This document shows positions 2,538 through 16,926 of a stretch of 19,280 nucleotides of DNA, in pieces. Within the stretch, counting starts at the first letter, position 1. Every line of letters starts with the position of its first letter. A model generated the notes under the pieces. That model made no database searches. It had not been told where the DNA came from and was given only the letters and a program-made list of their open reading frames with translations. Made by a program: the position numbers and the translations under genes. Source of the DNA: Archangiaceae bacterium (GTDB lineage Bacteria; Myxococcota; Myxococcia; Myxococcales; Myxococcaceae); assembly GCA_043750125.1 (NCBI GenBank), contig JAYVCD010000149.1:1-19280 (forward strand), written 5' to 3'.

Positions 2538-3568
2538 AAGCGATGGTGCTGTGCGCGGGGCTCGGCACTCGGCTGAGCCCGCTGACCCGGGTGTGGCCGA
2601 AGCCCGCCATTCCGCTGCTGGGTCAGCCGCTGTTTCGCTATGCGCTCGCGACTCTCAAGCGCGCGGGCATCACCCAGGTCGGAATCAACACCCACCACCT
2701 GCCCGAGGTGATGGAAGCCACCGCGAAGGCCGAATGCGCTTTGGCCGGCCTGCCGCTGACCGTGAACCGCGAAGAGGGAATCATCCAGGGCACCGGGGGC
2801 GGAATCCGGGGGTTGCGCAACTTTCTTCAAGATGAGGCCTTCGTGGTCCTCAACGGCGACGTGCTCTTCGGCTGCGACATCGCCGCCGCCGTCGCAGCGC
2901 ACGACCAGAGCGGAGCCGACGCGACCATGGTGTTGGCGCCTCTTCCCCAGAACGAAAAATTCAACCCGGTCGAGCTCGACGCCTCGCATCGGGTGCGGCG
3001 CATCGCCGGCCACGGCCCCGGCGGCCCCCGACTCACGTCCTGGCACTTCACCGGGGTCCACGTGTGCAGCCCGGCGGTCTTCGACTTCATGAGCGCAGAC
3101 GGGCCCGAGGACATCAACCGCGACGTCTACCCGCGGATGCTCGAAAAAGGCCTCACTGTCCACGGCCATCGCATCGATCCCTACGCCCACTACTGGAGCG
3201 ACCTGGGTACCCCGCAGCGCTACTTCGCCACCCATCGCGATCTGCTCTTCAGCCAGGTGGGCCTGGGCCCCTTCAGCGGCGCCTCACCGTTCGAAGACAC
3301 TCCCCGCGGCAGTGGCAACTGGTGGGCGCACCCCAGTGCCCGCCTCAACAATCTGCGCGGTGCAGGCCCTGCGTGGTTTGGAAAAGGGTGCGTGCTCGGG
3401 GACGACGTGACCGTCGGCTCGGGAACCTCGGTCGGGCCCGGCGCGCAGATCGGCAAGGGCGCGATGCTCAACCGCACCGTGGTCTTCGATGGCACCGAAG
3501 TCGAAGGCGGCCAGCTGTACGAAGACTGCCTGCTCGCCCCCGGGGGCATCCGGATCGAGCTCGGCTAA
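2534..3568 (+). CDS. murU: Sugar-1-phosphate nucleotidyltransferase (MurU-like by context) with C-terminal hexapeptide/left-handed beta-helix tail
   Basis: MKAMVLCAGLGTRLSPLT...PKP, GTGGG, VLNGDV, WSDLGTP. Translationally coupled to amgK. The gene symbol rests on context; family membership is firm. Confidence 0.75.
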   Translation: MKAMVLCAGLGTRLSPLTRVWPKPAIPLLGQPLFRYALATLKRAGITQVGINTHHLPEVMEATAKAECALAGLPLTVNREEGIIQGTGGGIRGLRNFLQDEAFVVLNGDVLFGCDIAAAVAAHDQSGADATMVLAPLPQNEKFNPVELDASHRVRRIAGHGPGGPRLTSWHFTGVHVCSPAVFDFMSADGPEDINRDVYPRMLEKGLTVHGHRIDPYAHYWSDLGTPQRYFATHRDLLFSQVGLGPFSGASPFEDTPRGSGNWWAHPSARLNNLRGAGPAWFGKGCVLGDDVTVGSGTSVGPGAQIGKGAMLNRTVVFDGTEVEGGQLYEDCLLAPGGIRIELG

Positions 3569-3607
3569 CCCATCTCACTTCGACGCCTGCCTCTGCCTGG
3601 TCGACCC

Positions 3608-3677
3608 GCAGCGCACACATAGGGGCATCAATGCCCTTCGGTGTGCGTTGCAAGAAGGGCATTGTGGGCCCGACGCA
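3608..3677 (+). promoter_or_regulatory. Structured intergenic element (long hairpin with a competing stem and pseudoknot) upstream of the HD-GYP gene
   Basis: 3608-3651 folds on itself (17 Watson-Crick pairs, 2 G-U, 2 mismatches). A competing perfect 11-bp stem pairs 3629-3639 with 3654-3664. Function unknown. Confidence 0.45.
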
Positions 3678-3884
3678 ATTTCAGCTGCTGCTTCACCAGA
3701 AAAAGAACAGCCCTGTTTCCAGCTTGCGCCAGCGCCACGCTCGCCATCGTCCCCGCGAAGGCCACCGCTTGCATCAGTCGCGGCGACCAGCCCAACCGCT
3801 CTTGATGCACCCTTCGAGCTTGCAGGGCCTGCACCCCTTCGCAGCGACATGCAGACCCGCCTCAATCTGGTTAAGGTCGATCGC

Positions 3885-4841
3885 TTGAGGCTCTACGCAT
3901 TGATTTTCTCGGGCGTGTTGCTGGCCGCGCTCGTCCCGACCGCCTTGGTCGCAGTGGTCGCGGTCATCTACGCCAATGGAATCACCACCCCGATCTTGAT
4001 CGCCTCGGTCAGCGGCCTGACCCTCGCCGGGCTGTTGGCGATCACCCTCGCGCGGCGCGTCACCCGGCCGCTCAACGGGTTTCGCGAGTTCGCGATGAAC
4101 ATCGCCCGCGGCAAGTTCGGCGGCCAGGTCGAGCACGACGCCAACGACGAGCTGGGCGAGCTGGCGAAGACCTTCAACTACATGTCCGCCAGCATCGAGG
4201 CCTACGACGCCGAGACCCAACGGCTGGCCGACGACATCGAGTCCGGGTACCTCGAGACGATCGTCGCACTCGCCAACTCGCTCGATTCCAAAGATCCGTA
4301 CACCCGCGGTCACGGCCAACGGGTCGCCGAGCTGGCGGTGTCGATCGGCCGGAACCTCAAGCTGTCCGAGCTCGAGCTCAAGCAGCTGAAGTACGGCGGC
4401 ATCCTCCACGACATCGGGAAGATTGGAATCGTCGAGACCATCTTGCTCAAGCAGACCCGCCTCAACGACACCGAGATGGAAACGATGCGGGCCCACCCGC
4501 TGATCGGCGATCACATCATCAAGCCCGTTCGGATGCTGTCCACCGTCCGCGCGGCGGTGCGAAACCACCACGAGTGGTGGGACGGCACCGGCTACCCGGA
4601 TCAGCTCAAGGGCGAGGCGATTCCGCTGATGGCGCGGATCATCGCGGTCGCCGACACCTGGGACGCTTGCACCTCGACCCGGCCCTACCAGGTCGCGTTT
4701 GCCGAGGAAGAGGCGCTGGCGGTGATCGACAAGCTCACCGGCCGCCACCTCGACCCCGCTCTGACCGTGGCACTCAAGCAGGTGATCTTCGAACGAAAGA
4801 CCGGGACCCGCCCCCGGACCGACGTGAAGGTCGCGGGCTGA
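3885..4841 (+). CDS. Membrane-anchored HAMP + HD-GYP cyclic-dinucleotide phosphodiesterase (PmxA-like, RxxQ variant)
   Basis: Two adjacent N-terminal hydrophobic helices, HAMP (TRPL...DELGELAKTFNYM), KDPYTRGH, LHDIGK, HHEWWDGTGYPDQLKGEAIP, VADTWDACTSTRPYQ. Start placed at TTG 3885 (TAAGGT 7 nt upstream); in-frame ATG 3849 is the alternative. The track start at 3489 overlaps murU and is unlikely. Confidence 0.92.
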   Translation: MRLYALIFSGVLLAALVPTALVAVVAVIYANGITTPILIASVSGLTLAGLLAITLARRVTRPLNGFREFAMNIARGKFGGQVEHDANDELGELAKTFNYMSASIEAYDAETQRLADDIESGYLETIVALANSLDSKDPYTRGHGQRVAELAVSIGRNLKLSELELKQLKYGGILHDIGKIGIVETILLKQTRLNDTEMETMRAHPLIGDHIIKPVRMLSTVRAAVRNHHEWWDGTGYPDQLKGEAIPLMARIIAVADTWDACTSTRPYQVAFAEEEALAVIDKLTGRHLDPALTVALKQVIFERKTGTRPRTDVKVAG

Positions 4842-4906: not shown

Positions 4907-5677
4907 ATGAAACCCGCAGTTCTTGCTGTGCTGTTGACGACCGGTTGCGCCACCGCGCACCTGACCGGGCCGGTGCCGATCACCGCCCCCGACCCCGGCG
5001 TGGCGCGGATCATCGTCCTCGAGCCCTTTTTCGAGACCGCCGAGTGGAAGACGACCGTGCTGACCGAGACCGCCACCATGATGGGCGGCAGCACCGTGCT
5101 GGGTCCCACCACCGGAAGCCCTTTTGCCAATGACGTGACCGTTCAGCGCGTCATTACCGAAAAGCCGCTGTTCGCCAAAGTGCCGATGCTGGCTGAAGAG
5201 CAACGCCAGGTGCTCGCCGAAGTTCAGCGGCTTCGCCCCAACTGGCGCGTGACCTCGACCGGCGGAGCGGGAATCCTCACCGGCCCCGTCACCCTCGTTC
5301 GGGTGATTGTCGGCGATGCCGAAATGGAAGAGTCCAACCGGTCGCTGAAGAACCTGGCCTTCGGGTTCGGACTGCTGATCTGGCCGCTGTTGCTCGCGAC
5401 GATCTCTCCGGTTCAAGAGACGCAGCGGATCTTCGGAGTGCTCAATCGGTACACCCTCGATGCCGAGCAGCTCAAAAGCCGACTGGTGCGCTACCCCAGT
5501 CAGCCCGATTTTGCGGTGAACACTGCAAACCTGCCGCCGTTCGAGCGGAGCTTCGGCCTCGATCTCTCTTACGAAGAAGGACTGTTGGCCAACGAGCTGC
5601 CCCGCGAGAACCTGCTCATTCGAGGCTTCAGCTTCAAGCTCGCGTCCGCCATCGTCGCACTGGTCGAGGAACCGTAA
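4907..5677 (+). CDS. Putative lipoprotein of unknown function, 256 aa
   Basis: From ATG 4907: MKPAVLAVLLTTG-C lipobox-like signal; internal hydrophobic segment LAFGFGLLIWPLLLATI. The upstream extension in the track overlaps the HD-GYP gene and is rejected. Confidence 0.8.
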   Translation: MKPAVLAVLLTTGCATAHLTGPVPITAPDPGVARIIVLEPFFETAEWKTTVLTETATMMGGSTVLGPTTGSPFANDVTVQRVITEKPLFAKVPMLAEEQRQVLAEVQRLRPNWRVTSTGGAGILTGPVTLVRVIVGDAEMEESNRSLKNLAFGFGLLIWPLLLATISPVQETQRIFGVLNRYTLDAEQLKSRLVRYPSQPDFAVNTANLPPFERSFGLDLSYEEGLLANELPRENLLIRGFSFKLASAIVALVEEP

Positions 5678-5681
5678 AGCC

Positions 5682-6029
5682 ATGGGCAACTTCTGGGACT
5701 CCATCAAGCCTGCCACCCGCGTCCCGGTCGCGCTTCGGGTCGATCTGTCGGAAGACCAGCGCACGCTGGCGCTGCATTGGGAGGACGGCCTCGACACCCA
5801 GGTTACGGCGCGGGCGCTGAGGCAAAACTGCCCCTGCGCCGAGTGCGTCGAAGAGTGGAGCGGAAAGCGCACCTTCGACCCCGAGAAGATCCCGGCCGAG
5901 ATCAAGATCATCGAAATTTCGGAGGTCGGAAACTACGCGCTGACCTTTACCTTCGGCGACCTTCACCGAATCGGGATCTTCAACTGGAAACACCTGCGCG
6001 AATTGTCGCCGGTGAAGACCGATGGCTGA
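5682..6029 (+). CDS. DUF971 / GBBH-like N-terminal domain protein
   Basis: LHWEDG...LRQNCPCAEC...VGNYALTFTFGDLHRIGIFNWKHLREL is the characteristic DUF971 pattern. Confidence 0.9.
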   Translation: MGNFWDSIKPATRVPVALRVDLSEDQRTLALHWEDGLDTQVTARALRQNCPCAECVEEWSGKRTFDPEKIPAEIKIIEISEVGNYALTFTFGDLHRIGIFNWKHLRELSPVKTDG

Positions 6030-6594
6030 GAATCGAAACGACGACGAGGCGTGGAATCCCACCGGCCGACAGCTTCGTGCCGACGGGTCGATGACCTCAG
6101 AGGTCAAGCCGGTCGAAGCGCCCGTTGAAAAGCCGTTGCCTTCCCTTCCTTCTTCCGAGCTGCCACGACTCGACTCGCTCTCGACCGGAGATCTCGTCCT
6201 CGACCGCCCGGCGCCTGCGTCGCGCGTTCCCTTCGTCGAGCCCGGTGCCTACCGGCCCGAAGTCATTCCCACCCGCTCGAGCCCGACGAAGTGGGTTTTG
6301 ATGCTGGTCGCGTTGGCCGCACTGGCGCTGGCGGCCTTTGCGCTCGTGCCGGGGCTGCAGCGAAAGCTGCCCCTTCCGATGCGGACCCCCGGAAGCCTGG
6401 TGATCGATTCCGAGCCCTCGGGGGCGACGGTGAAGATCGCCGGGAAGCAGGTCGGCCAGACGCCGTGGGCGGGCGACAACCTGTGGATCGGGGAAGTGAA
6501 GTACGAAATTTCGGCCGCCGGCCACAAGCCCAGGTGGGGCACGTTTCAGGGCGGCGATGCAGTGAAGCTGAACGTGAAGCTGTCGAAGAAGTAG
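6022..6594 (+). CDS. Single-pass membrane protein with C-terminal PEGA domain
   Basis: TM segment WVLMLVALAALALAAFALV followed by GSLVIDSEPSGATVKIAGKQVGQTP (PEGA); 8-bp overlap with DUF971. Confidence 0.85.
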   Translation: MAENRNDDEAWNPTGRQLRADGSMTSEVKPVEAPVEKPLPSLPSSELPRLDSLSTGDLVLDRPAPASRVPFVEPGAYRPEVIPTRSSPTKWVLMLVALAALALAAFALVPGLQRKLPLPMRTPGSLVIDSEPSGATVKIAGKQVGQTPWAGDNLWIGEVKYEISAAGHKPRWGTFQGGDAVKLNVKLSKK

Positions 6595-6597
6595 GGA

Positions 6598-7104
6598 CTA
6601 CTTCACCAGCCGCAGGTGGCCGCGACGCGGAGGCTCGGGCGGATCTTTGGGCAGCTCGGCCCCGTCCTCGCTCTTCCTTTCCATCAACACCTCACGCAGC
6701 ACCGTCCGGGCTTCCGGTCGGCCCTCAGGCTGGGTGGTGCCCGCAAGCTCGCCGGTCTGCTGAAGCCGTTCGGGAGTCGCCTCGAGCAGCTCGCGCGGCA
6801 TGTCGTCGGGGTACATCCAGAACTCTTTGCTGTGGTGGCTGCTGATTGCGTAGAGCGCGCTCCAGGGCACGGCAATCGTAAAGCGCCTTCCGCCAAAGGT
6901 CAGGGTGCAGCGAACGCCCCACTCGCCGACCGCCAGGTCCGGCGGCTCGAACCGGTACGACAGGTTGAGCAACAGGTGCGGCTCTTGTTTCAGATCCTCG
7001 GGAACCAGCACGCCCGGTCGGCGCGCGTCGAGGTGGATCATCGTCAGGCCCTGTTCGAGCGAGCCGAGGAGCCGGGTCTTTTTTTCGTCCGTCCGTTTGT
7101 CCAT
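6598..7104 (-). CDS. sspB: ClpXP specificity-enhancing factor SspB family (stringent starvation protein B)
   Basis: IHLDARRPGVLVP, LLLNLS, LTFGGRRFTIAVPWSALYAI, and a C-terminal ClpX-binding-type tail RRGHLRLVK. Confidence 0.88.
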   Translation of the reverse strand: MDKRTDEKKTRLLGSLEQGLTMIHLDARRPGVLVPEDLKQEPHLLLNLSYRFEPPDLAVGEWGVRCTLTFGGRRFTIAVPWSALYAISSHHSKEFWMYPDDMPRELLEATPERLQQTGELAGTTQPEGRPEARTVLREVLMERKSEDGAELPKDPPEPPRRGHLRLVK

Positions 7105-7110
7105 TGACGC

Positions 7111-7584
7111 TCAACGCTTGCGGAGGACCCTGTCCATCTCGCGCTTTGATTCTCGTTCTTTGATCGTCTGCCGCCGGTCTTCGTGCGTCTTGCCCGTACA
7201 CAACCCGAGCCTCACCTTCGCCTTGCCGTCCTTGAAGTAAATCATGAGCGGGATGATGGAATAACCCCGTTCGACCACCTTCGCCCCCCACTTGTCGATC
7301 TGCTCCCGGTGCAGCAACAGCTTGCGGGGCCGGGTGGGCAGATGGGCAAAATGGGTCGCCGCTTTGTACGCCCCGATGTGGGCGTTGACGAGGAACAACT
7401 CTTTGCCTTTCGGAAGCGCGTAGGAATCGTTGAGGCTCGCTTCCCCATTGCGCAGCGCCTTGACCTCGGAACCAATCAGCTGCAGCCCGGCCTCGAGGGT
7501 GTCCTCGACCGTGTAATCGAACCGAGCGCGCCGATGCTCGGTGACGATCGATTCTGCGCCCGGGGGCTGATCGTGTTTTGCCAC
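7111..7584 (-). CDS. smpB: SsrA-binding protein SmpB
   Basis: RRARFDY...EAGLQLIGSEVKALR, RPRKLLLHREQI, GK...DRRQTIKERE tail. Confidence 0.97.
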   Translation of the reverse strand: MAKHDQPPGAESIVTEHRRARFDYTVEDTLEAGLQLIGSEVKALRNGEASLNDSYALPKGKELFLVNAHIGAYKAATHFAHLPTRPRKLLLHREQIDKWGAKVVERGYSIIPLMIYFKDGKAKVRLGLCTGKTHEDRRQTIKERESKREMDRVLRKR

Positions 7585-7604
7585 TGAAACTGTGCTCCTA
7601 CCCT

Positions 7605-8462
7605 TTATCCGGCGACGACGCTCAGGTTGTCGATCAACCGCGTCTTGCCGACGTAGGCGGCGATCAACGCGCGGGCCGCCACCCCCGGCTCGAGGCGCTG
7701 CAGCGACTTCAAGCTCTGAGCATCGACCAGCGCGATGTAGTCCTCTCGAAGCTGGGCGTCGCGCAGAAAGCTTCGTATCCGCTCGATCAACACCGCCGCG
7801 TCGCGCTCGCCGGCCTTCGCCAGCTGCTGGGCCGCCTTCAGCCCCCGCGACAAGGCCAACGCCTGCCGCCGTTCATCGACGGTGAGGTAGGTGTTGCGGG
7901 AACTCAGCGCCAACCCGTCGGGCTCGCGCACCGTCGGCATCCCGACGATTTCGACCCCCAGGTTCAAGTCGACGTTCAGGGTGCGAATCACCTGCAGCTG
8001 CTGGTAGTCCTTCTCGCCAAACAGCGCCAGGTGCGGTCGAAACATCGCCAGCAGCTTGGTCACCACCGTGGCCACGCCCTTGAAGTGCCCGGGCCGCTTC
8101 TCGCCACACAGCCCCTGGCTGACCGCGGTCACCTCGACGAAGGTCTGAAAGCCGGGGGGGTAGATTTCCTTCGGCTCGGGGGTGAAGACCACTTCGGCTC
8201 CCGCGCTCTGGCACTTGGCCAGATCTCCCTGCAGATCTCGCGGGTAGCGCGACAGGTCTTCGGTCGGTCCAAACTGGGTCGGGTTGACGAAGATGGTCGT
8301 CGCCACCACGTCGGCCCGACCTCGGCCTTCGCGAATCAGTGACAAATGCCCCTCGTGCAGAAACCCCATCGTCGGGACCAGCGCGAGCCGCTTTCCGGTC
8401 GACCACTGCTTCGCCGAGAAGGCTTGAACCTCGGCGACCGTGCTCAGAATCTGCAAGCTCAC
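7605..8462 (-). CDS. panC: Pantoate--beta-alanine ligase
   Basis: [62 protein letters not shown] overlap with panB. Confidence 0.98.
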
Positions 8463-9346
8463 ACCGGCACGCCGTAGACGGCGCTCTTCTCTTCGGGCTC
8501 GCTGGACGAAACGTCGGGGTTGCTGGCGACCAGGCGAATCGACGACGAGTGGAACGAGTGCTCGTTGTCCGGAAAGGTCTCGGCGCGCACTTCGGTGAAG
8601 AACGTCTGCGCCGCCTGTGTGATGCCGGTGAACATGTCGGCGTAGCGCTTGACGAACTTCGGCTTGAAGTCCGGGTTCAACCCCAGCAGGTCGTAGCAGA
8701 CCAGCACCTGGCCATCGCAGTGCTTGCCCGCGCCGATCCCGATGGTGGGAATGCTCACCCGGGCGGTGATCTGCCGCGCCAATTCGAGCGGAACTCCTTC
8801 CAGCACCACCGCGTAGCAGCCGGCCTTTTCGAGCGCGACCGCGTCTTCGAGCAGGCGACGGGCGGTCTGCTCGTCTTTGCCCTGCACCACGTAGCCGCCC
8901 ATTTTGTGCACCGACTGCGGGGTGAGGCCCAGGTGCCCCATCACCGGAATCGAGGCGCGGACGATGCGCTCGATCGTCTCGGAAAACTCGGCGCCGCCTT
9001 CCAGCTTCACGCTGCCGACGCCGCCCTCGGACACCAGCCGGCCCGCGTTGCGCACCGCCTCTTCGGTCGAGTTCTGATAGCTCATGAACGGAAGGTCGCC
9101 GACCACGTGGGCGCGCTTGGCTCCCCGGCTGACGGCTTTGCAGTGGTAGACCATCTGGTCCATCGTGACGGGCAAGGTCGAGTCGTTGCCCTGGACGACC
9201 ATTCCCAGCGAGTCGCCCACCAGCAACACGTCGGCCCCTGCGTCATCGAGGATCCGGGCGAAGGTGGCGTCGTAGGCGGTGACCATGCAGATCTTCTGAC
9301 CTGCGGTCTTTTGCTTCTTGAGCGTATGGATGGTGACCTTGTTCAC
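8459..9346 (-). CDS. panB: 3-methyl-2-oxobutanoate hydroxymethyltransferase
   Basis: [40 protein letters not shown]; strong SD GGAGGTG before the GTG. Confidence 0.98.
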
Positions 9347-9481
9347 GGGTTCACCTCCGGGGGGAGTGCGGGTGGATTGTTGGTTTTGCAGCCTCGGCGC
9401 CGGTCAAACCGGTCGTCGTGCTCCCATCGCATTCGCCTGGCGCTCAAAAAGGCCACCTTCGGCTCGTTCGATATTTCCTAT
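9347..9481 (-). promoter_or_regulatory. 135-nt panB leader with a bulged hairpin and an SD-occluding hairpin (candidate cis-regulatory RNA)
   Basis: Minus strand: cgacg-a-ccggt-ttg-accgg-cgccg (9418-9395), and cactcc-cccc-ggaggtg covering the SD. Confidence 0.3.
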
Positions 9482-10126
9482 TTAACGGCGACTGGCCAGC
9501 GGTTGGTAGTGGTGTGTGCCCTTCTTTGTCTGGCGAATCACCGCGACCAGATTCTCTAGATCTTCCGCGTTGTTGACGAAGTCGATGTCCGAGGTGTTGA
9601 CCACCAACAGCGGGGTGTCGGTGTAGTGAAAAAAGAATTCGTTATACCGGCGGCATAAATCTTCGAGGTAGGTCGGGTCGAACTTTCGCTCGAACTCGCG
9701 CCCCCGCTTGCGGATCCGCGCCATCAGGACGTCGTTTCGGGCCTGAAGGTAGATGACCAGGTCCGGCTTGGTGACCCGCGGCCCCAGCGCTTCGAACACC
9801 CGCTCGTAGAGCGCCAGCTCGTTCGGGTCGAGCGTGAGGTGGGCGAAGATCCGGTCCTTCGCGAACAGATAGTCGCTGACCGTCATCGCGCTGAAGAGGT
9901 CTTGCTGGAACAATTCCTGCTGCTGTTTGAAGCGGCTGAGCAGGAAAAACATCTGGGTCTGAAAGGCAAACTTCGCCTTGTCCCCGTAGAACGAAGAGAG
10001 AAACGGGTTCTCTTCGACCACTTCCATCACCCGGCGCGCATGAAAACGCTCCGCGAGGATGTGGGTAAGGGACGACTTTCCGACCCCAATCGGACCATCC
10101 ACGACGATGTAGCGGTGATCGCCCAA
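9482..10126 (-). CDS. Deoxynucleoside kinase family protein
   Basis: YIVVDGPIGVGKSSL P-loop, ENPFL, QMFFLLSRFKQ, PDLVIYLQA, RIRKRGREFE; TTG start preceded by GGAG. Confidence 0.95.
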   Translation of the reverse strand: MGDHRYIVVDGPIGVGKSSLTHILAERFHARRVMEVVEENPFLSSFYGDKAKFAFQTQMFFLLSRFKQQQELFQQDLFSAMTVSDYLFAKDRIFAHLTLDPNELALYERVFEALGPRVTKPDLVIYLQARNDVLMARIRKRGREFERKFDPTYLEDLCRRYNEFFFHYTDTPLLVVNTSDIDFVNNAEDLENLVAVIRQTKKGTHHYQPLASRR

Positions 10127-10212
10127 TCGCGCTCCAGGGCCGGTAAATCGGCCTCAAAACGTGGCGCGATTAGACTGTGTTTTGGTAAATGTCGAGCAAT
10201 CACGAAGGTATT

Positions 10213-10241
10213 TTGACGGCCAATGTCATGTAACGTATGGT
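10213..10241 (+). promoter_or_regulatory. Sigma70/SigA-type promoter, probably leaderless
   Basis: TTGACG (10213-10218), 17-bp spacer, TATGGT (10236-10241); ATG 10248 follows after 6 nt with no SD. Confidence 0.7.
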
Positions 10242-10247
10242 CACGTG

Positions 10248-10529
10248 ATGGCGAATTCGCGGGGGAAGTCGTCGCACGGGAAGAAGGTGATTGAGCTTCG
10301 GGGAGTCGAGGAGATTGCGGACGTTCCTCCCGAGATTTCGACCAGCCCGCTCTACGGGGTCGCGATGCTCAAGATCGCCATGGAGCTGAAGAAGGCCGAC
10401 GCGCGACCGCTCGAGGAGCTGGTCAGCAGCGTGCTGCAGCGCATGCATCTGCCGGAAGAAGAGTTCCGTCAGTTCCTCGCCAGCAATGGTGGGCTGCTGC
10501 GGGCGATCGCCCTGAAGAAGAGGTACTGA
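10248..10529 (+). CDS. Hypothetical helical protein, 93 aa
   Basis: MANSRGKSSHGKKVIELRG...LLRAIALKKRY with high-GC3 codons. Start moved from the track's 10161 because that extension runs through the AT-rich promoter. Confidence 0.8.
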   Translation: MANSRGKSSHGKKVIELRGVEEIADVPPEISTSPLYGVAMLKIAMELKKADARPLEELVSSVLQRMHLPEEEFRQFLASNGGLLRAIALKKRY

Positions 10530-10531
10530 AA

Positions 10532-10684
10532 ATGAGCGGGGCAGCGAAAAAGGTCAGAGTCCCGGTGAAGGTCGTCGAGCGCGCCAAAGCGTTGGCTTCG
10601 GTCAAAGTCGTGGGGAAGACTTCAGCGCAGCTGAAGAAGGCGAAGGTCGTCGCCGCGCTCAAGCGCCTTCACCCGATGGACTGA
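10532..10684 (+). CDS. Small, highly basic hypothetical protein, 50 aa (absent from the ORF track)
   Basis: MSGAAKKVRVPVKVVERAKALASVKVVGKTSAQLKKAKVVAALKRLHPMD. GAGG upstream; fills the gap exactly (2 bp after the previous stop, 7 bp before the next start). Confidence 0.72.
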   Translation: MSGAAKKVRVPVKVVERAKALASVKVVGKTSAQLKKAKVVAALKRLHPMD

Positions 10685-10691
10685 AGGAACC

Positions 10692-11585
10692 GTGGAACAG
10701 AGCCTGCTGACTGTCGTGCTGCTCCCGGCCGCGCTGGGGGTGATCATGCTCGGCCTGGGCTTGACGCTCACCCTCGACGATTTCCGGCGGGTGGTCGCCT
10801 TTCCCCGAGCCGTCTTCGTCGGGCTCTCGTGCCAGATGTTGGTGCTGCCCCTGGTGTGCTTCGCGGTGGCGAAGGCGTTTGCGCTGCCGCCCGAGTTCGC
10901 AGTCGGGCTGATGTTGCTGTCGGCCTCGCCCGGCGGAGCGACCGCCAACCTCTTCAGCCACCTGGCCCACGGAGACGTAGCGCTGAACATCACGCTCACG
11001 GCGGTCAACAGCGTGCTGTCGCTGTTCAGCCTGCCCTTCATCGTCAACTTCGCTCTCGAGAGGTTCATGGGCGAGGGAAAGATGATCCCGCTCCAGTTCG
11101 GCAAGGTGCTGCAGGTCTTCGCGATCGTGCTCATTCCGGTGGCGATCGGAATGGCGATCCGCGCGGCGAACGCCCCCTTCGCCCGGAAGCTCGAGAAACC
11201 GATTCGGGTCATCTCGGCGACCGTGCTGCTGGTGGTCATCTGCGGGGCGATCATCAAGGAGCGCGCACGGGTGCTCGAGTACCTGCAGTTGGTTGGCGCC
11301 GCAGCGTTCACCTTCAACGTGGTCAGCATGGCGATCGGGTTCTTCGTGCCCCTGGCCTTCAAGCTTCCCCGCCGGCAGGCGATCGCAATCGGGATGGAGA
11401 TCGGCGTTCACAATGGGACGCTGGCGATCGCGATCGCCTCGAGCCCCCTGCTGCTGAACAACTCGCTGATGGCGATACCGGCGGCGATCTACAGCTTGAT
11501 CATGTTCTTCACCGCTTCGGCGTTCGGGTTCCTCGTCAGCCGCCGCCGCTCGCCGGTGCAGAAGTCGGTTGAGGGGTCTGATTGA
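10692..11585 (+). CDS. Bile acid:sodium symporter (BASS/SBF) family transporter
   Basis: IMLGLGLTLT..DFRRV, SPGGATANLFSHLAHGDVALNITLTAV, AIGMEIGVHNGTLA; polytopic hydrophobic pattern; AAGGA SD. Confidence 0.95.
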   Translation: MEQSLLTVVLLPAALGVIMLGLGLTLTLDDFRRVVAFPRAVFVGLSCQMLVLPLVCFAVAKAFALPPEFAVGLMLLSASPGGATANLFSHLAHGDVALNITLTAVNSVLSLFSLPFIVNFALERFMGEGKMIPLQFGKVLQVFAIVLIPVAIGMAIRAANAPFARKLEKPIRVISATVLLVVICGAIIKERARVLEYLQLVGAAAFTFNVVSMAIGFFVPLAFKLPRRQAIAIGMEIGVHNGTLAIAIASSPLLLNNSLMAIPAAIYSLIMFFTASAFGFLVSRRRSPVQKSVEGSD

Positions 11586-12096
11586 GGCGGCCCAGGTCGT
11601 AGGAGGCCGCTTTGAGCCTGGCGGTGATTCTCTGGAACACCGCGGGATCCATCTGGGGGGTCCGGCTCAAGATCCACAGGTAATCGCGGGACGGGTGGCC
11701 CACGACCGCGAACTCGTAGTCTTCACCGAGATCCACAATCCAATACGCGCCCCAGAAGGGACGAAAGAAGCTCACTTCCAGTCGGGCGTTGGTCTGGGGG
11801 TCGACCACCCGCGCCCTGCCGATGGCGGTCTTCAGCGGCCCGTCAATCAAGTCCAGGTGGCACGAGTTGGTCACGTCGATTTGCCCGTCTGGCCGCAGCG
11901 CATAGTTTGCGGTGGTGGCGGTGCAGCCCTTCTGGAAGCTCTGCGGGAAGCTGGCGATCTCGTACCAGGTGCCCAGGTAGCGCTGCAGTTCGACCTTCGG
12001 CACCGTCGTCAGTGGCGGAAGCTTCAGCCGTTCGGTGGAAGAGATGGCACAGGACGCGAAGGCCAGCGCGAGGATGAGGAGCGGTCGAAATGTCAT
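11536..12096 (-). CDS. blc: Outer-membrane lipoprotein lipocalin (Blc family)
   Basis: Lipobox FAS-C, RYLGTWYEIA, LEVSFFRPFWGAYWIV, YLWILSRTP. Confidence 0.93.
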   Translation of the reverse strand: MTFRPLLILALAFASCAISSTERLKLPPLTTVPKVELQRYLGTWYEIASFPQSFQKGCTATTANYALRPDGQIDVTNSCHLDLIDGPLKTAIGRARVVDPQTNARLEVSFFRPFWGAYWIVDLGEDYEFAVVGHPSRDYLWILSRTPQMDPAVFQRITARLKAASYDLGRLNQTPQPTSAPASGGG

Positions 12097-12136
12097 CTCT
12101 CGATCTAACCTTGGGCCTTCAGCCCTACCTCTTCAA

Positions 12137-12964
12137 CTACAGCGATCTTTCGAGCGCGGCGAACTCGGCGACGGACAGCGTCTCGGCCCGTCTGATTCCG
12201 TCGATCCCCGCGCGCAGCAGCGCTCCGGTCAAATCCATCGCCTTGAACGCCGGGTCGCCTTTGAGCGAGTTGAGCAGCGTCTTGCGCCGGTGCGCGAAGC
12301 CCGCCTTGACCAGCTTGCGAAATCGCAGCTCGTCGGTCACTTCCGCCGCCGGGCTCTCGCGCCGGGTCAGTCGCACCACCGCCGAATCGACGTTGGGAGG
12401 AGGGTGAAACAGGCTGCGCGACAGCTTGAAGACCAGCTCGACCTGGTAGCGAAGGCCCAGCAGCACCGACAGCAGCCCATAGTCCCTGCCCCCCGGAGCG
12501 GCGGCCAGCCGGGTGACCACTTCGAGCTGCAGGGTAAAGACCGCCCGGGTCACGTGCTCGGACTGATCGAGCACTTCAAAAAGAATCGAGCTCGACAGGT
12601 GGTAGGGAAGGTTTCCGACGACCGCCACCTGATCCACTCCGGCGGTCTTGGCGAAGTCGATTTCCGCCGCGTTCCCCGCGACCACCGTCAAGCCCGGCAG
12701 CTTCATCGACTCGAGCACGCGGACCATGTCGCGGTCGCGCTCGACGGCAGTGACCTTCGCTCCGGTCGCCAGCAACGCGCGCGTCAAGTGGCCCAACCCC
12801 GGCCCCAGCTCGACCACCGGGTCGTCTTTCTTCAGCTCGACCGCGTCGGCAATCTTCTTCAGCGCGTGTTCGTCGCCCAGAAAGTTCTGGCCCCAGCTGT
12901 ACTTCGGCTTGAGCCCGAACCGCCGAAGAAGGTCGGCCGGGGAATCAGGATTTACAGCCGCCAT
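12137..12964 (-). CDS. rsmA: 16S rRNA m6,2A1518/1519 dimethyltransferase RsmA/KsgA
   Basis: GQNFL, VELGPGLGHLT, VERD, VVGNLPYHLSS, FHPPPNVDSAVV, FAHRRKTLLN. Start placed at ATG 12964 (13-bp overlap with tsaD). Confidence 0.96.
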   Translation of the reverse strand: MAAVNPDSPADLLRRFGLKPKYSWGQNFLGDEHALKKIADAVELKKDDPVVELGPGLGHLTRALLATGAKVTAVERDRDMVRVLESMKLPGLTVVAGNAAEIDFAKTAGVDQVAVVGNLPYHLSSSILFEVLDQSEHVTRAVFTLQLEVVTRLAAAPGGRDYGLLSVLLGLRYQVELVFKLSRSLFHPPPNVDSAVVRLTRRESPAAEVTDELRFRKLVKAGFAHRRKTLLNSLKGDPAFKAMDLTGALLRAGIDGIRRAETLSVAEFAALERSL

Positions 12965-13950
12965 GCAGGATCCGAGTTGAGCGAAAAGTCGGCGCGGGTG
13001 CCGCGCTTGAGGGCTTCGTACCCTGCAACGGCGATCATCGCTCCGTTGTCTGTGCACAGCCTGGGCGGGGGAAGGAACAGCCGAACGCCGGCTTCGAGCG
13101 CACGTTCCTGGGCCAACGTACGCAGCCGCGAGTTCGCCGCGACCCCGCCGCAAATGACCAGCGTTTTGCAGCCGTGCTTCTTCACCGCGGCGAACACCTT
13201 CTTCGTCAGCACGTCGGCGACCGCCTCTTGAAAAGACGCACAGACGTCAGCCAGCGCCTGACCGGTGGGAGCACCGTGCTGGCGCACGTGATTGAGCACC
13301 GAGGTCTTGAGGCCCGAGAAGCTCCAGTCGAAGACTTCCGGGCCCGGCAGCGCGCGCGGAAAGCGAATGGCTCTGGGGTCTCCGGTTTGCGCCAGCGCGT
13401 CGATCGGCTGACCGCCGGGGTAGGGCAGCCCCAGGACTTTGGCGACCTTGTCGTAGGCTTCCCCCGCAGCGTCGTCTCGGGTCGCCGCGAGCCGGTGGTA
13501 GGTCCCGAAGGCCGGAACTTCGTAGAGGCTGGTGTGCCCGCCCGAGACAATCAGCCCGAAAAACGGCGGCTCGGGAGCCTCGGGCAACAACCGGATCGCG
13601 AGCAGGTGCCCTTCGAGGTGATTGACGCCCGCGAACGGAAGTCCGCTCGCCCACGACAGCGCCTTGGCCACCTGAAGCCCCACCAGCAGCGCTCCTTGCA
13701 GGCCCGGGCCACTGGTGACCGCGAGGCCATCGAGATCCGACAACTGCAGGCCGGCGCGGGTGAGCGCTTCGTCGATCACCGGCATCACCTGCACCACGTG
13801 GTTGCGGCTCGCGAGCTCCGGGACGACTCCCCCCCAGCGGCGGTGAATGTCGATCTGGGTCGAGACTACGTCGGACAGCGCCACGCGGCCATCGAGCACC
13901 ACCGAAGCGGCGGTCTCGTCGCACGACGTTTCGATGCCCAACACCTTCAC
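12952..13950 (-). CDS. tsaD: tRNA N6-threonylcarbamoyltransferase TsaD
   Basis: VLGIETSCDETA, GGVVPELASRNH, NHLEGH, VSGGHT, DDAAGEAYDK, FSGLKT, GGVAANSRLR, CTDNGAMIA. Confidence 0.98.
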   Translation of the reverse strand: MKVLGIETSCDETAASVVLDGRVALSDVVSTQIDIHRRWGGVVPELASRNHVVQVMPVIDEALTRAGLQLSDLDGLAVTSGPGLQGALLVGLQVAKALSWASGLPFAGVNHLEGHLLAIRLLPEAPEPPFFGLIVSGGHTSLYEVPAFGTYHRLAATRDDAAGEAYDKVAKVLGLPYPGGQPIDALAQTGDPRAIRFPRALPGPEVFDWSFSGLKTSVLNHVRQHGAPTGQALADVCASFQEAVADVLTKKVFAAVKKHGCKTLVICGGVAANSRLRTLAQERALEAGVRLFLPPPRLCTDNGAMIAVAGYEALKRGTRADFSLNSDPAWRL

Positions 13951-16556
13951 TTCAGCTGGCCGAGCGCCGCCCGAACCTCGTCGGCCATCGAGCCGGTCGG
14001 TTTCAGCTTCAAGTACTGCTGGTAGGGCGCGCGGGCTTCGTTGGTGCGGCCCATGTTCTGAAATGCCATTCCCAATGCCAGCCAGGCCTGCGGGTTGGCC
14101 GCATCGGCAGCGACCGATTCCTTGAGCAGCGGAACGGCGTCGCGGTAACCGGTATCTGAGAGCACCATCGAGATCCCGAGCCCGGTCTTCGCCTCATGCG
14201 AGTCGGGCTGAAGCTCCAGCGCCTGCTTGTAGGCCTTGAGTGCAGTGCCCCAGCGCTCTTTCTGAATCGCTTTTTTCGCGTCGGCGATCAGCTTCTCGTA
14301 GTCGCCCTCACCCGTGCCCCCGTCCGAAGCCGCAGCCCACCTGGAACCGGCGTCGACGATGGGAAGGCGGACTTCGGCCGCCCCGGCATCGACCGTCACT
14401 CGGGCAGCCACGAAGGGCACCGAGGCGTCGGGGACCTGTAGGACGTTGACCTGCGCTACGGAGGCATCAAAAAATTCTGCCTCGAGCGCGTACCCGCCCG
14501 CGTCTTCGACCGCGGCGGCGATCATCGCCGGTCGGTCTTCAACCCCTGGAGCGGGAAGCGGAGCTTTGAAGAAGTAGATGACGACGGTGGCAGCCAGCCC
14601 TCCGATCGCGAACCCCAACAAGATCGTTCGGCCCAGGGGGAACCGGGCCCGAAGGACGGGCGGCTGGGTGTCTTCATCATCGGTCGTAGGCTCAGTCAGA
14701 ATCGACGGAGTGTTTTCCTGGCCAAAGAAGCTGTCTTCCGCCGCGGTGCCGCGGCCAATCGGAGAGAGCCTCGGCGCTAGGACCGGAACGAGGCCATGGC
14801 CCGGGTAGGGGGGCAGCGCCAACTGCTTCGGCAAAGACCCGGGGGGAGGCGTCATGTCCGAGGGAGGAGGTGGCACCTGCAGCGCCGGCGGGATGTCCGG
14901 GCCCAAAGTGGGGGTCAGGATGTCCGGCTCAGGGTCGATGTCGAGCGGAACCAGATCGTCGAGCAACGGCAGCGTCGCAACCGGAATCCGCGGAGGGAGA
15001 ATGGCCTTTTCGAGTGCCGCGCCTCCAAAGACGGGCGCCCTGGGGACCTCGGGAATGGGTGAGCGTTCCCCGTCAGGTCGGGTCCACGCGCGAACGGGCG
15101 CCCAGATCGACGACGAGCCGATGCCTTCAGAATCGAGCTGGCTCCACTTGTCGAGCAGGTGGGCGCGCGCGCGCTGCAGCTCGTTCGAGCGCGGAGGCTC
15201 GACCAGAAATTGCGACGCCGGATCTTGCCTCGTCGGGTTCACGAGCGGGACCGGGGTGATCGGAAGCTCGGGGGTGGGTGGCCCCCGCGGCCGGGGAGCG
15301 AACCTGATGACTTCCGCGGGGGGCTTGAAGACCGCCGGACGTTCGACCGGACGGTCGAGCAGGGTGGGGGGCAGCTCGGGTTCGGCTGCCGCAACTTGAA
15401 GCGCGACCTGTTGCTCGACGGTGGGCGTGGGCGGCGAAGGCAGCGCGACGACCTCGAGCGCGATCGGATCACTCGGGTCCAGACCCTGAACCGGCATCGT
15501 GGGGCTGACGGTCACTTCCGGCGGGCGGCCCGGTTCGGAGCCCACCGGCTCGGGTCCGATGTTGAGCCATTCTTCGATTCCCGGCTTCTTCTTCGAGGGC
15601 TCTTCGGGGGCCGAAGCCGCTCCGAGCTCTTTGATCAGCCCTTCGAAGTACAGCTTGCTGATGATCCCCAGCGCCGCGAGATCTTCGAAGTCCGAGTCAT
15701 CGACGACCTTCGCCAGGGTTCGGCGCCCGTCGAAGAGCCGCAACAGCCCATTCACTTCGTCCGGAATTTCAGAAAGTCGATCGGCCAGCTGGGTGTAGTC
15801 GAGCTCGAAGACGGTCTCGAGTGGAGGCAGCTGCTCGAGCATTCGGCCCCACTCGTCGAGCCGCCGCATGCCTTCCATCAACAGGCCCTGCGTCGACATC
15901 TCGATTCGCTCGGGGCGCTCGACCGCTCCGAAGCCGACCTCGAACTTGCCCTCGAAGGTATTGAGCATCCGGTAGAAGGCGTTTTCGCCCTTCAGTCGGC
16001 CCAGCTCGGAATCAATGACCTTTCCTTCGCGGAAGTAGATGAGCCCGGTGCGCTCTCCTTCGATCTTGATGGTGCCCGTCTTCCGACCGATCTCGAACGT
16101 CTGGACCAGGTCGACGACGCCCATGTCCGAGAGGCTTCCTGCGAACCCGGCTTTGGTCTCGCGCTTCTCGTTGCGTTCCTTCTCGACCTTCTGAAGGATC
16201 ATCTTCACGCGGGTGACGATCTCTTTGATGTAGATCGGCTTGGTCAGGTAGTCGTCGCCACCCAGTTCCAGGCCCTTGATCTTGAACTCCACCGACTTCT
16301 GATTGGTGAGGAAGACGTAAGGGATGTGACGGAAACGCTCGTCGCTCTTGAGGATGCGACACAGCTCGAACCCGTCCAGCTCGGGCATTCGGGTATCGGC
16401 GAGGACGAGGTCCGGAGGACTGATCTGGACTTTCTCCAGAGCGTCTTTGCCATGGATCGCGGTCGTGACCTGGAAGCCAGCCTTCTTCAGGCTGACTTCC
16501 ATCACGCGCAGACTCTTCGCGTCTCCATCGACCAGCAGGAGATGCTGCTTCGCCAC
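13947..16556 (-). CDS. Membrane-anchored response regulator: REC - DUF4388 - Pro-rich linker - TM - TPR (PglH-like)
   Basis: Receiver (LLVDGD, LVLADTRMPELDG, FLT, TKP), DUF4388-like block (FAGSLSDMGVVDLVQ...KTG...IYFREGKVIDS), TM TILLGFAIGGLAATVVIYFF, and C-terminal TPRs (YKQALELQP, AWLALGMA, YQQYLKLKP). Confidence 0.9.
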   Translation of the reverse strand: MAKQHLLLVDGDAKSLRVMEVSLKKAGFQVTTAIHGKDALEKVQISPPDLVLADTRMPELDGFELCRILKSDERFRHIPYVFLTNQKSVEFKIKGLELGGDDYLTKPIYIKEIVTRVKMILQKVEKERNEKRETKAGFAGSLSDMGVVDLVQTFEIGRKTGTIKIEGERTGLIYFREGKVIDSELGRLKGENAFYRMLNTFEGKFEVGFGAVERPERIEMSTQGLLMEGMRRLDEWGRMLEQLPPLETVFELDYTQLADRLSEIPDEVNGLLRLFDGRRTLAKVVDDSDFEDLAALGIISKLYFEGLIKELGAASAPEEPSKKKPGIEEWLNIGPEPVGSEPGRPPEVTVSPTMPVQGLDPSDPIALEVVALPSPPTPTVEQQVALQVAAAEPELPPTLLDRPVERPAVFKPPAEVIRFAPRPRGPPTPELPITPVPLVNPTRQDPASQFLVEPPRSNELQRARAHLLDKWSQLDSEGIGSSSIWAPVRAWTRPDGERSPIPEVPRAPVFGGAALEKAILPPRIPVATLPLLDDLVPLDIDPEPDILTPTLGPDIPPALQVPPPPSDMTPPPGSLPKQLALPPYPGHGLVPVLAPRLSPIGRGTAAEDSFFGQENTPSILTEPTTDDEDTQPPVLRARFPLGRTILLGFAIGGLAATVVIYFFKAPLPAPGVEDRPAMIAAAVEDAGGYALEAEFFDASVAQVNVLQVPDASVPFVAARVTVDAGAAEVRLPIVDAGSRWAAASDGGTGEGDYEKLIADAKKAIQKERWGTALKAYKQALELQPDSHEAKTGLGISMVLSDTGYRDAVPLLKESVAADAANPQAWLALGMAFQNMGRTNEARAPYQQYLKLKPTGSMADEVRAALGQLK

Positions 16557-16589
16557 AGTGAAAAACCTCGGTTAAAGAGAAGGGGGGAT

Positions 16590-16919
16590 CTAGGACGCCG
16601 CGAGGTATTCCGCCAGAACTGCGCGGTCTTCCTCGGTCATGACGAGGAATTCGAAACCCATGCCGCCTTGCTGGAAGGGCTCGGGAAAGCGACGGACCCA
16701 GGCCACCCGGCCCTGAGCGCGCATCGGTCGGGGGACTCCGGGGACGCGAAACTCGAGGGCCAGCTGCTCGCCTTGCTCGAGCAAGAGGTCGGCGCGGACG
16801 AAGCTGCCTCCGATCGAAAGATCGGCGCCGGTGAAATGGAGCTCGCCTCGGGCATCGAGGCCGATGAAATCGACCTGCAGCGCATGGCGCTGGAAACGGC
16901 GTTTCTGGGGGGTGCTCAT
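16590..16919 (-). CDS. Stand-alone PilZ domain protein
   Basis: RxxxR (RRFQR) and DxSxxG (DLSIGG), plus GRVAWVR...GMGFEF typical of myxobacterial PilZ domains. Confidence 0.92.
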   Translation of the reverse strand: MSTPQKRRFQRHALQVDFIGLDARGELHFTGADLSIGGSFVRADLLLEQGEQLALEFRVPGVPRPMRAQGRVAWVRRFPEPFQQGGMGFEFLVMTEEDRAVLAEYLAAS

Positions 16920-16926
16920 GGTCGGT

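What the first reader, a model, noticed from the sequence alone, without database searches (positions are those of the whole stretch)
3885..4841. Sensor-less PmxA-like HD-GYP enzyme with RxxQ signature: candidate 3',3'-cGAMP phosphodiesterase
Seen: the HD, HHE and GYP motifs are intact, but the distal substrate motif reads RPYQ (4680-4691) instead of the usual RPY[R/K]. The two TM helices are joined by only a few residues (YANGITTP), leaving no extracytoplasmic sensor. Established (recalled, not re-checked): Myxococcus xanthus PmxA is a cGAMP-preferring HD-GYP enzyme whose specificity is attributed to Gln at this position, and it has a periplasmic Cache domain before its HAMP. The gene order here also resembles my recollection of the pmxA neighbourhood. 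Inference: this is a naturally sensor-deleted PmxA orthologue that is constitutive, responds to membrane state or a partner protein, or is controlled mainly through expression.
Basis: partly seen in the sequence, partly recalled or inferred. Interest (0 to 1): 0.72.

Follow-up and report, generated by a model that had tools for sequence, protein, structure and literature searches.

The report
Sensor-stripped cGAMP eraser in myxobacteria
This gene is a real, lineage-wide short version of the myxobacterial signalling enzyme PmxA that lacks the outside sensor and both neighbouring partner genes, so it likely destroys the messenger cGAMP without an outside cue, and the joint loss suggests that those partners feed the sensor in Myxococcus.

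Summary
Observation confirmed. 3885-4841 encodes a 318-aa 2TM-HAMP-HD-GYP protein. R266/Q269 align with PmxA R515/Q518, every metal-binding residue compared is kept, and the gene sits in the pmxA locus. It is a PmxA orthologue with the dCache domain deleted in frame. The genome has two Hypr-signature GGDEFs, so cGAMP is the likely substrate (not assayed). It is not an artefact and not rare: 13 of 150 pmxA-bearing family genomes carry the short form (12 seen whole), and Anaeromyxobacteraceae, cultured species included, have a similar one. New here is a co-loss pattern. None of the 13 keeps the FecR-lipoprotein or LysM-FN3 operon partners (MXAN_2063/2062), against 134 and 135 of the other 137. 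The one long form seen without partners has a decayed Cache. Partnerless genes have a -10-like box just before the start. Related genera deleted the gene but kept the synthase. Best reading: a membrane-anchored, expression-controlled cGAMP drain. The co-loss, only two or three independent events, points to FecR/LysM-FN3 as PmxA's unknown input. The scan's earlier notes held nothing on this.

The parts
3872..3877 (+). TAAGGT, -10-like box 7 nt before the start codon; no Shine-Dalgarno seen (putative own promoter, near-leaderless)
   Evidence: TAnnnT 7-12 nt before the start in 10 of 10 main-clade short forms and 1 of 26 long forms; 1-6% per sequence in shuffles. The sigma-70 scan found no full promoter here.
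3885..4841 (+). Sensor-less PmxA orthologue, 318 aa, 2TM-HAMP-HD-GYP
3888..3971 (+). TM1 helix; keeps PmxA's N-terminal pattern (R2, L3, I7, V17, P18, T19 at the same positions)
   Evidence: model helix 2-29; direct comparison with the long form
3972..3983 (+). About 4-residue turn in place of the roughly 255-residue dCache_1 domain
3984..4046 (+). TM2 helix, running into HAMP
4047..4199 (+). HAMP domain (27 of 52 residues identical to P0116)
4269..4763 (+). HD-GYP domain (117 of 173 residues identical to P0116 over PmxA 378-550); H143, H175, D176, H204, H228, H229, G236-Y237-P238, D257 kept
4680..4691 (+). RPYQ = RxxQ signature (R266, Q269)
   Evidence: signature defined in 10.1101/600031
4907..5677 (+). 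Lipoprotein-like gene of no known family; locus marker that stays when pmxA is deleted, so probably not a partner
5682..13950 (.). Conserved downstream block DUF971/GBBH-like_N, PEGA, sspB, smpB, panC, panB, dNK, rsmA, tsaD that marks the pmxA locus

Best explanation
The gene is an orthologue of M. xanthus PmxA that lacks the periplasmic dCache domain and both operon partners, and it likely works as a membrane-anchored, cGAMP-preferring phosphodiesterase whose output is probably set by how much is made rather than by an outside signal. Shown: architecture, intact active site, RxxQ, orthology, purifying selection, absence of the partners, Hypr-signature synthases in the genome. Inferred order of events: the FecR-lipoprotein and LysM-FN3 genes were lost, the dCache domain then had no input and was deleted in frame while TM1 stayed (a separate deletion), and the gene came to stand directly behind a -10-like box. 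The TM hairpin and HAMP would now serve as anchor and dimer scaffold, and the enzyme would act as a steady drain opposing the GacA- and GacB-like synthases. In related branches the constraint loosened further (Q to S, or complete deletion).
For: Orthology: shared downstream gene order, and nitrilase-rimP-nusA-infB upstream in short-form relatives; tree of HAMP-HD-GYP places 9 short rows in one clade (98/95) among long PmxA rows; single hit per genome. Activity: dN/dS 0.03-0.12 in the HD-GYP part against four relatives; catalytic columns invariant in 43 aligned short proteins; the isolated cytoplasmic PmxA 384-568 is active without any sensor (PMC4877007 passages). Specificity: Q518R switches PmxA to c-di-GMP (10.1101/600031). 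Synthases: G000 C279 (GHVIGS, GGDEY) and C432 (GAF; GHLAGS, GGDEF) fit the Ser/GGDE[F/Y] rule; the C279 type with Ser is in 24 of 24 genomes searched. Partner loss: 0 of 13 short-form genomes have either orthologue, against FecR in 134 and LysM-FN3 in 135 of the other 137, including single-contig G012. G112 is long but partnerless, and its Cache is 33% identical to PmxA's against 45-73% for comparable relatives. -10-like box: 10 of 10 short forms, and among 26 long forms only G112. TM1 is less conserved among short forms than among long ones at equal HD-GYP distance (0.42 against 0.62).
Against: No assay. Of six Rxx(Q/N) candidates tested in the paper three looked selective, two cut both nucleotides and one was inactive, and PmxA itself also cuts c-di-GMP in vitro. 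HAMP is as conserved in short as in long forms (0.60 against 0.61) and the TM hairpin is under purifying selection within the genus (0.06-0.29), which fits continued signalling through the membrane too. Removing a sensor can lock a HAMP protein off as well as on (own knowledge). The co-loss rests on two or three independent events, and G158 joins the short clade in the gene tree (91/81, long branch) but not in the marker trees. Long forms in other families (G028, G039, G040) keep a homologous Cache with at most weak FecR/FN3 hits. The -10-like box is a pattern match among related genomes only.
Confidence: 0.6

Rival explanations
1. The TM hairpin is itself the sensor, as in intramembrane-sensing kinases: it reads membrane state or a new partner protein and regulates the enzyme through HAMP.
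For: Same 2TM-short loop-HAMP plan as intramembrane-sensing kinases (search listing only). HAMP not relaxed; loop YANGIT nearly fixed in the genus; Anaeromyxobacteraceae short forms keep TM1 and HAMP well conserved (0.60 and 0.75).
Against: Across the short clade the loop varies in sequence and length and nearly vanishes in P0043/P0044; only small hydrophobic residues and the inherited Pro18 are conserved in the hairpin. The downstream lipoprotein stays when the gene is deleted, so it is a poor candidate partner.
Confidence: 0.2
2. The short form is a weakened or broadened relic on its way out: low activity or mixed cGAMP/c-di-GMP activity, dispensable.
For: Longer branches in the short clade; 14 of 43 short clusters have RPYS while 67 of 67 long ones have RPYQ; five genera in the same marker-tree clade have no gene although GacA stays.
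Against: The window's branch keeps RPYQ, all metal ligands and low dN/dS; the form has persisted across at least five genera.
Confidence: 0.15
3. The short form is ancestral and PmxA gained its dCache and partners later.
For: Short forms occur in three other families (G025, G027, G030, G036); the trees do not fix the root inside the family.
Against: Long forms in two other families carry a homologous Cache (E 1e-27 to 1e-32 to the PmxA Cache profile); P0163/P0164 keep what looks like the first helix of the Cache followed by a degenerate linker.
Confidence: 0.05
4. Assembly artefact or pseudogene.
For: The genome is a fragmented bin (460 contigs).
Against: Same form in 11 other genomes seen whole and 43 protein clusters; contig bridging with no differences.
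Confidence: 0.01

Closest known systems
PmxA (MXAN_2061), Myxococcus xanthus cGAMP phosphodiesterase
   Same: Orthologue at the same locus; TM1, TM2, HAMP, HD-GYP; RxxQ; 68% identity in HD-GYP; host has GacA- and GacB-like Hypr GGDEFs.
   Different: [quoted passage not shown]
GAP subclass of HD-GYP enzymes (Rxx[Q/N]; Bd2325 and others in 10.1101/600031)
   Same: Signature residue and intact active site.
   Different: Activity not measured; I found no description of a 2TM-HAMP-HD-GYP member without a sensor.
Anaeromyxobacteraceae 2TM-HAMP-HD-GYP proteins (P0123, P0241 and about 100 more clusters)
   Same: Same sensor-less plan; 114 RPYQ and 5 RSYQ among the 120 listed.
   Different: Other family, other gene neighbourhood, probably a separate loss; I found no study of them.
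Intramembrane-sensing histidine kinases (SaeS, GraS)
   Same: Two TM helices with a very short outside loop.
   Different: Kinase output and dedicated accessory proteins; here the plan arose by deletion of a Cache and no accessory protein was found.
LysM-FecR proteins beside CHASE2 sensor kinases (COG4254; PMC5192318)
   Same: Precedent for a periplasmic LysM/FecR protein encoded beside a membrane sensor, as in the ancestral pmxA operon.
   Different: CHASE2 kinase rather than dCache HD-GYP; binding not shown in the passages read.

Membership tests
HD-GYP phosphodiesterase | HD, HHExxDGxGYP and the other metal ligands intact | tested here: met
   motif definition from 10.1101/2021.11.05.467447 passages; top fold matches are HD-GYP structures
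GAP (cGAMP-preferring HD-GYP) | Q or N at the PmGH K317 / PmxA Q518 position | tested here: met
   Q269 aligns with Q518 and with the PmGH Lys
GAP (cGAMP-preferring HD-GYP) | Measured preference for 3',3'-cGAMP over c-di-GMP | not testable with these tools
   needs an assay; 3 of 6 signature candidates looked selective in the paper
Hypr-cGAMP pathway | A Hypr GGDEF (Ser at the 348 position with GGDE[F/Y]) in the same genome | tested here: met
   two of 18 GGDEF hits examined (of 22 found): C279 and C432
PmxA orthologues | Conserved locus and clade membership | tested here: met
   of the six HD-type hits in the genome only this one has RPYQ
PmxA as described | Periplasmic Cache domain between the TM helices | tested here: not met
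PmxA as described | Operon with FecR lipoprotein and LysM-FN3 genes | tested here: not met
   genome 89% complete, but also missing in single-contig G012
Intramembrane sensors | Activity controlled through the TM hairpin or a membrane partner | tested here: inconclusive
   TM1 and loop relaxed, HAMP not

The most novel reading that the evidence does not exclude
The short form is a natural deletion experiment that reveals PmxA's input: MXAN_2063 and MXAN_2062 form one periplasmic module (a FecR domain split over two genes, plus a peptidoglycan-binding LysM and an FN3 domain) that binds the dCache and couples cell-wall state to cGAMP breakdown. Lineages that lost the module turned the enzyme into an unregulated drain, changed its specificity or deleted it.
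Probability: 0.4. Interest if true: 0.68.

Novelty: new variant of a known kind. Interest (0 to 1): 0.45.

Why it matters
I found no paper that names what PmxA's Cache domain senses, and PMC8844925 calls the function of MXAN_2063 and MXAN_2062 unknown. PmxA is needed for efficient sporulation, with a fitness profile like that of the lytic transglycosylase LtgB. The co-loss gives a direct test in a genetically tractable organism. The short enzyme, if active, is also a compact cGAMP drain and a natural test of what a HAMP-HD-GYP does by default without its sensor. On its own the enzyme is an ordinary domain-loss variant.

Tried and rejected
A longer protein from ATG 3489 or 3849, or a frameshifted Cache upstream: rejected; no Cache remnant by tblastn or profile and relatives start at the 3885 codon. 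Module loss following loss of fruiting-body development: rejected; a close match to a 229-aa regulator that I take from recall to be FruA is in 7 of 30 genomes searched, and 12 genomes with the full module lack it. Downstream lipoprotein as new partner: unlikely; it is present beside long forms and stays after pmxA is deleted. Riboswitch or other RNA: no Rfam match in the window at gathering thresholds. No full sigma-70 promoter on the + strand. No RNA holder listed. A Fisher test on the co-loss is not used because kin are not independent. The complex prediction for FecR + LysM-FN3 + dCache was not available, so binding is untested. Solved-structure searches with the partner alignments gave only LysM/FN3 and weak matches, and a profile comparison of the two partners gave nothing. 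Earlier scan notes: one unrelated HD-GYP note, none on PmxA.

Full report
What is there. The window is one whole contig (G000:C149) of a 6.2-Mb, 89%-complete bin; the closest loci come from records titled Myxococcales, Archangiaceae or Myxococcaceae bacterium. 3885-4841 encodes 318 aa. Pfam gives HAMP and HD_5/HD and no Cache. The model shows two N-terminal helices joined by four residues, and its best fold matches are HD-GYP structures. TTG 3885 is the conserved start.

Relation to PmxA. P0116, named by NCBI from M. xanthus, has 568 aa with H424, G485 and R515, the published PmxA numbering (PMC4877007 passages; 10.1101/600031, whole text read). I used it, and a protein of genome G188 with the same numbering, as stand-ins. 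The window's protein is identical at 117 of 173 HD-GYP and 27 of 52 HAMP positions, and Q269 lies on Q518. In G188 the order is infB-nusA-rimP, nitrilase, FecR lipoprotein, LysM-FN3, pmxA, DUF971, sspB, smpB, panC, panB, dNK, rsmA, tsaD; the first three match the MXAN_2063-2062-pmxA operon of PMC8844925 (passages). The window shares the downstream block; its upstream side is rearranged. Short-form relatives G012, G016, G208, G209, G210 and G145 keep the nitrilase upstream, without FecR or LysM-FN3. In a tree of 45 HAMP-HD-GYP rows, 9 short rows form a clade (98/95) among long family members; three truncated rows were left out.

How common. Of 208 family genomes 150 have a hit. Thirteen are short: 12 with the N-terminus seen and G001, a 91%-identical congener cut by a contig end. 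Of the other 137 I inspected 43 as long; most of the rest are classed by alignment start and open frame, and 8 are truncated. The protein search listed 120 of 591 hits; the top 43 are short clusters of 290-354 aa. A second search, with a short form from another family, listed 120 of 613 hits, 109 of them sensor-less by length, including proteins named from Anaeromyxobacter diazotrophicus and A. paludicola. So the form is real, old and not rare. Contigs of runs X1 and X2 cover 3500-4105 without differences, though they may be the source sample.

Is it working. dN/dS against four relatives is 0.03-0.12 in HD-GYP, 0.15-0.44 in HAMP and 0.06-0.29 in the hairpin. Catalytic columns are invariant in 43 aligned short proteins. 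The genome has 22 GGDEF hits; of 18 examined two have the Hypr serine with GGDE[F/Y] (rule from PMC6456294 passages). One is GAF-GGDEF, like GacB; the other is cut by a contig end and matches REC-GGDEF proteins, like GacA (the gene names are my assignment by architecture). The Gln is a good but imperfect predictor: Q518R switches PmxA, yet of six candidates three looked selective, two cut both and one was inactive.

Co-loss of the partners. Profile searches of all 208 genomes found FecR and LysM-FN3 orthologues in 138 genomes each, using a cut that I placed afterwards at the gap in scores (orthologues E below 1e-24, paralogues above 1e-16). None of the 13 short-form genomes has either, single-contig G012 included. 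Of the other 137, 134 have FecR and 135 LysM-FN3; the misses are G112, G157 (truncated, form unknown) and, for FecR, G129 (contig break). These counts include the unpublished G148 as one positive. G112 is long but partnerless; its Cache is 33% identical to PmxA's against 45-73% for the other non-Myxococcus-like family members and scores about half as well on the Cache profile. Marker trees place the main short clade, G158 and G112 apart, so there are up to three events, not thirteen; the gene tree joins G158 to the short clade with weak support. Because TM1 is retained, the Cache deletion is separate from the loss of the upstream genes. Long forms in two other families have a homologous Cache but only weak partner hits, so the link may be confined to this family. 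The window's genome has other FecR/FN3 genes beside Cache-like HAMP kinases (C360, C51), and LysM-FecR genes beside CHASE2 kinases are described (PMC5192318 passages). The FecR gene covers Pfam positions 1-73 of 97, and in a fused paralogue (C37) the match to it is followed by a match to the middle of the LysM-FN3 protein, which suggests one FecR domain split over two genes. Binding is untested because the complex predictor was not available.

Control by expression. A TAnnnT box lies 7-12 nt before the start in 10 of 10 main-clade short forms, against 1-6% per sequence in shuffles, and in 1 of 26 long forms, that one being G112. G158 has such a box before an upstream ATG. Long forms follow the LysM gene closely, 11 of 26 with a Shine-Dalgarno-like word. 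This is a pattern among kin, with no RNA evidence. At equal HD-GYP distance TM1 is less conserved in short than in long forms (0.42 against 0.62) while HAMP is not (0.60 against 0.61; ungapped comparison), which leaves membrane sensing open.

Further decay. Fourteen of 43 short clusters have RPYS; 67 of 67 long ones have RPYQ. An RxxS enzyme is reported, as a personal communication, still to cut c-di-GMP (10.1101/2021.11.05.467447 passages). Five genera without any hit fall in one clade (100) with the main short forms. In single-contig G008 the nitrilase abuts the lipoprotein gene, five such genomes have only paralogous HD-GYPs, and the GacA-like gene stays. The loss does not follow fruiting genes (FruA label recalled).

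Literature. Searches found no paper on a sensor-less PmxA or on the function of MXAN_2062/2063. The library is partial; the journal version of the GAP paper and its list of 539 candidates, and the tables of 10.64898/2026.08.28.747804 (passages and section 24 read), were not seen and may bear on novelty. Papers were seen as listings only.

Verdict. Real feature, new variant of a known kind. The enzyme alone is modest. The co-loss is the useful part, since it names a testable input for PmxA. Interest 0.45.

Noticed in passing
L069:10772-12138 (G188), orthologues of MXAN_2062/2063: The FecR lipoprotein stops at Pfam position 73 of 97, and the middle of the LysM-FN3 protein looks like the missing C-terminal part; a fused paralogue exists in G000 C37:615-2573. 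Likely a FecR domain split over two genes.
   Followed up: partly
L065, L066, L067 (G016, G209, G210) and 14 clusters among P0021-P0045: A sub-branch of the short form has RPYS in place of RPYQ; specificity may have changed.
   Followed up: partly
L139:9409-9445 (G008): Clean deletion of the whole pmxA module in a single-contig genome that keeps a Hypr GGDEF; what removes cGAMP there is unknown.
   Followed up: partly
L170:2917-7873 and L171:2336-6731 (G000 C360, C51): FecR and FN3 genes beside Cache-like HAMP histidine kinases: the same module plan with a kinase output.
   Followed up: partly
P0163, P0164: Anaeromyxobacteraceae-like homologues with an apparent Cache remnant (first helix plus low-complexity linker) between the TM helices.
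   Followed up: no
window 3569-3884: 316-nt gap between the murU-like gene and this gene, against under 100 nt in G003 and G151; no Rfam match and no Cache remnant.
   Followed up: partly
window 4907-5677: Lipoprotein-like gene with an internal hydrophobic stretch and no Pfam or NCBIfam match, conserved at this locus in many uncultured family members and not found at the locus in the Myxococcus-like genomes fetched.
   Followed up: partly
L029, L031 (G004, G002): The short gene is inverted relative to the downstream block and follows a sigma-54-type activator gene, yet keeps the -10-like box.
   Followed up: no
window 13947-18519: REC-DUF4388-TPR, PilZ and DnaJ-TPR genes in a row; the PilZ protein could be a cyclic-dinucleotide reader.
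   Followed up: no
window 18630-19000: Tandem low-complexity repeat coding; the minus strand reads as repeated EEARLAE/KKPAS-type units at the 5' side of the DnaJ-TPR gene.
   Followed up: no
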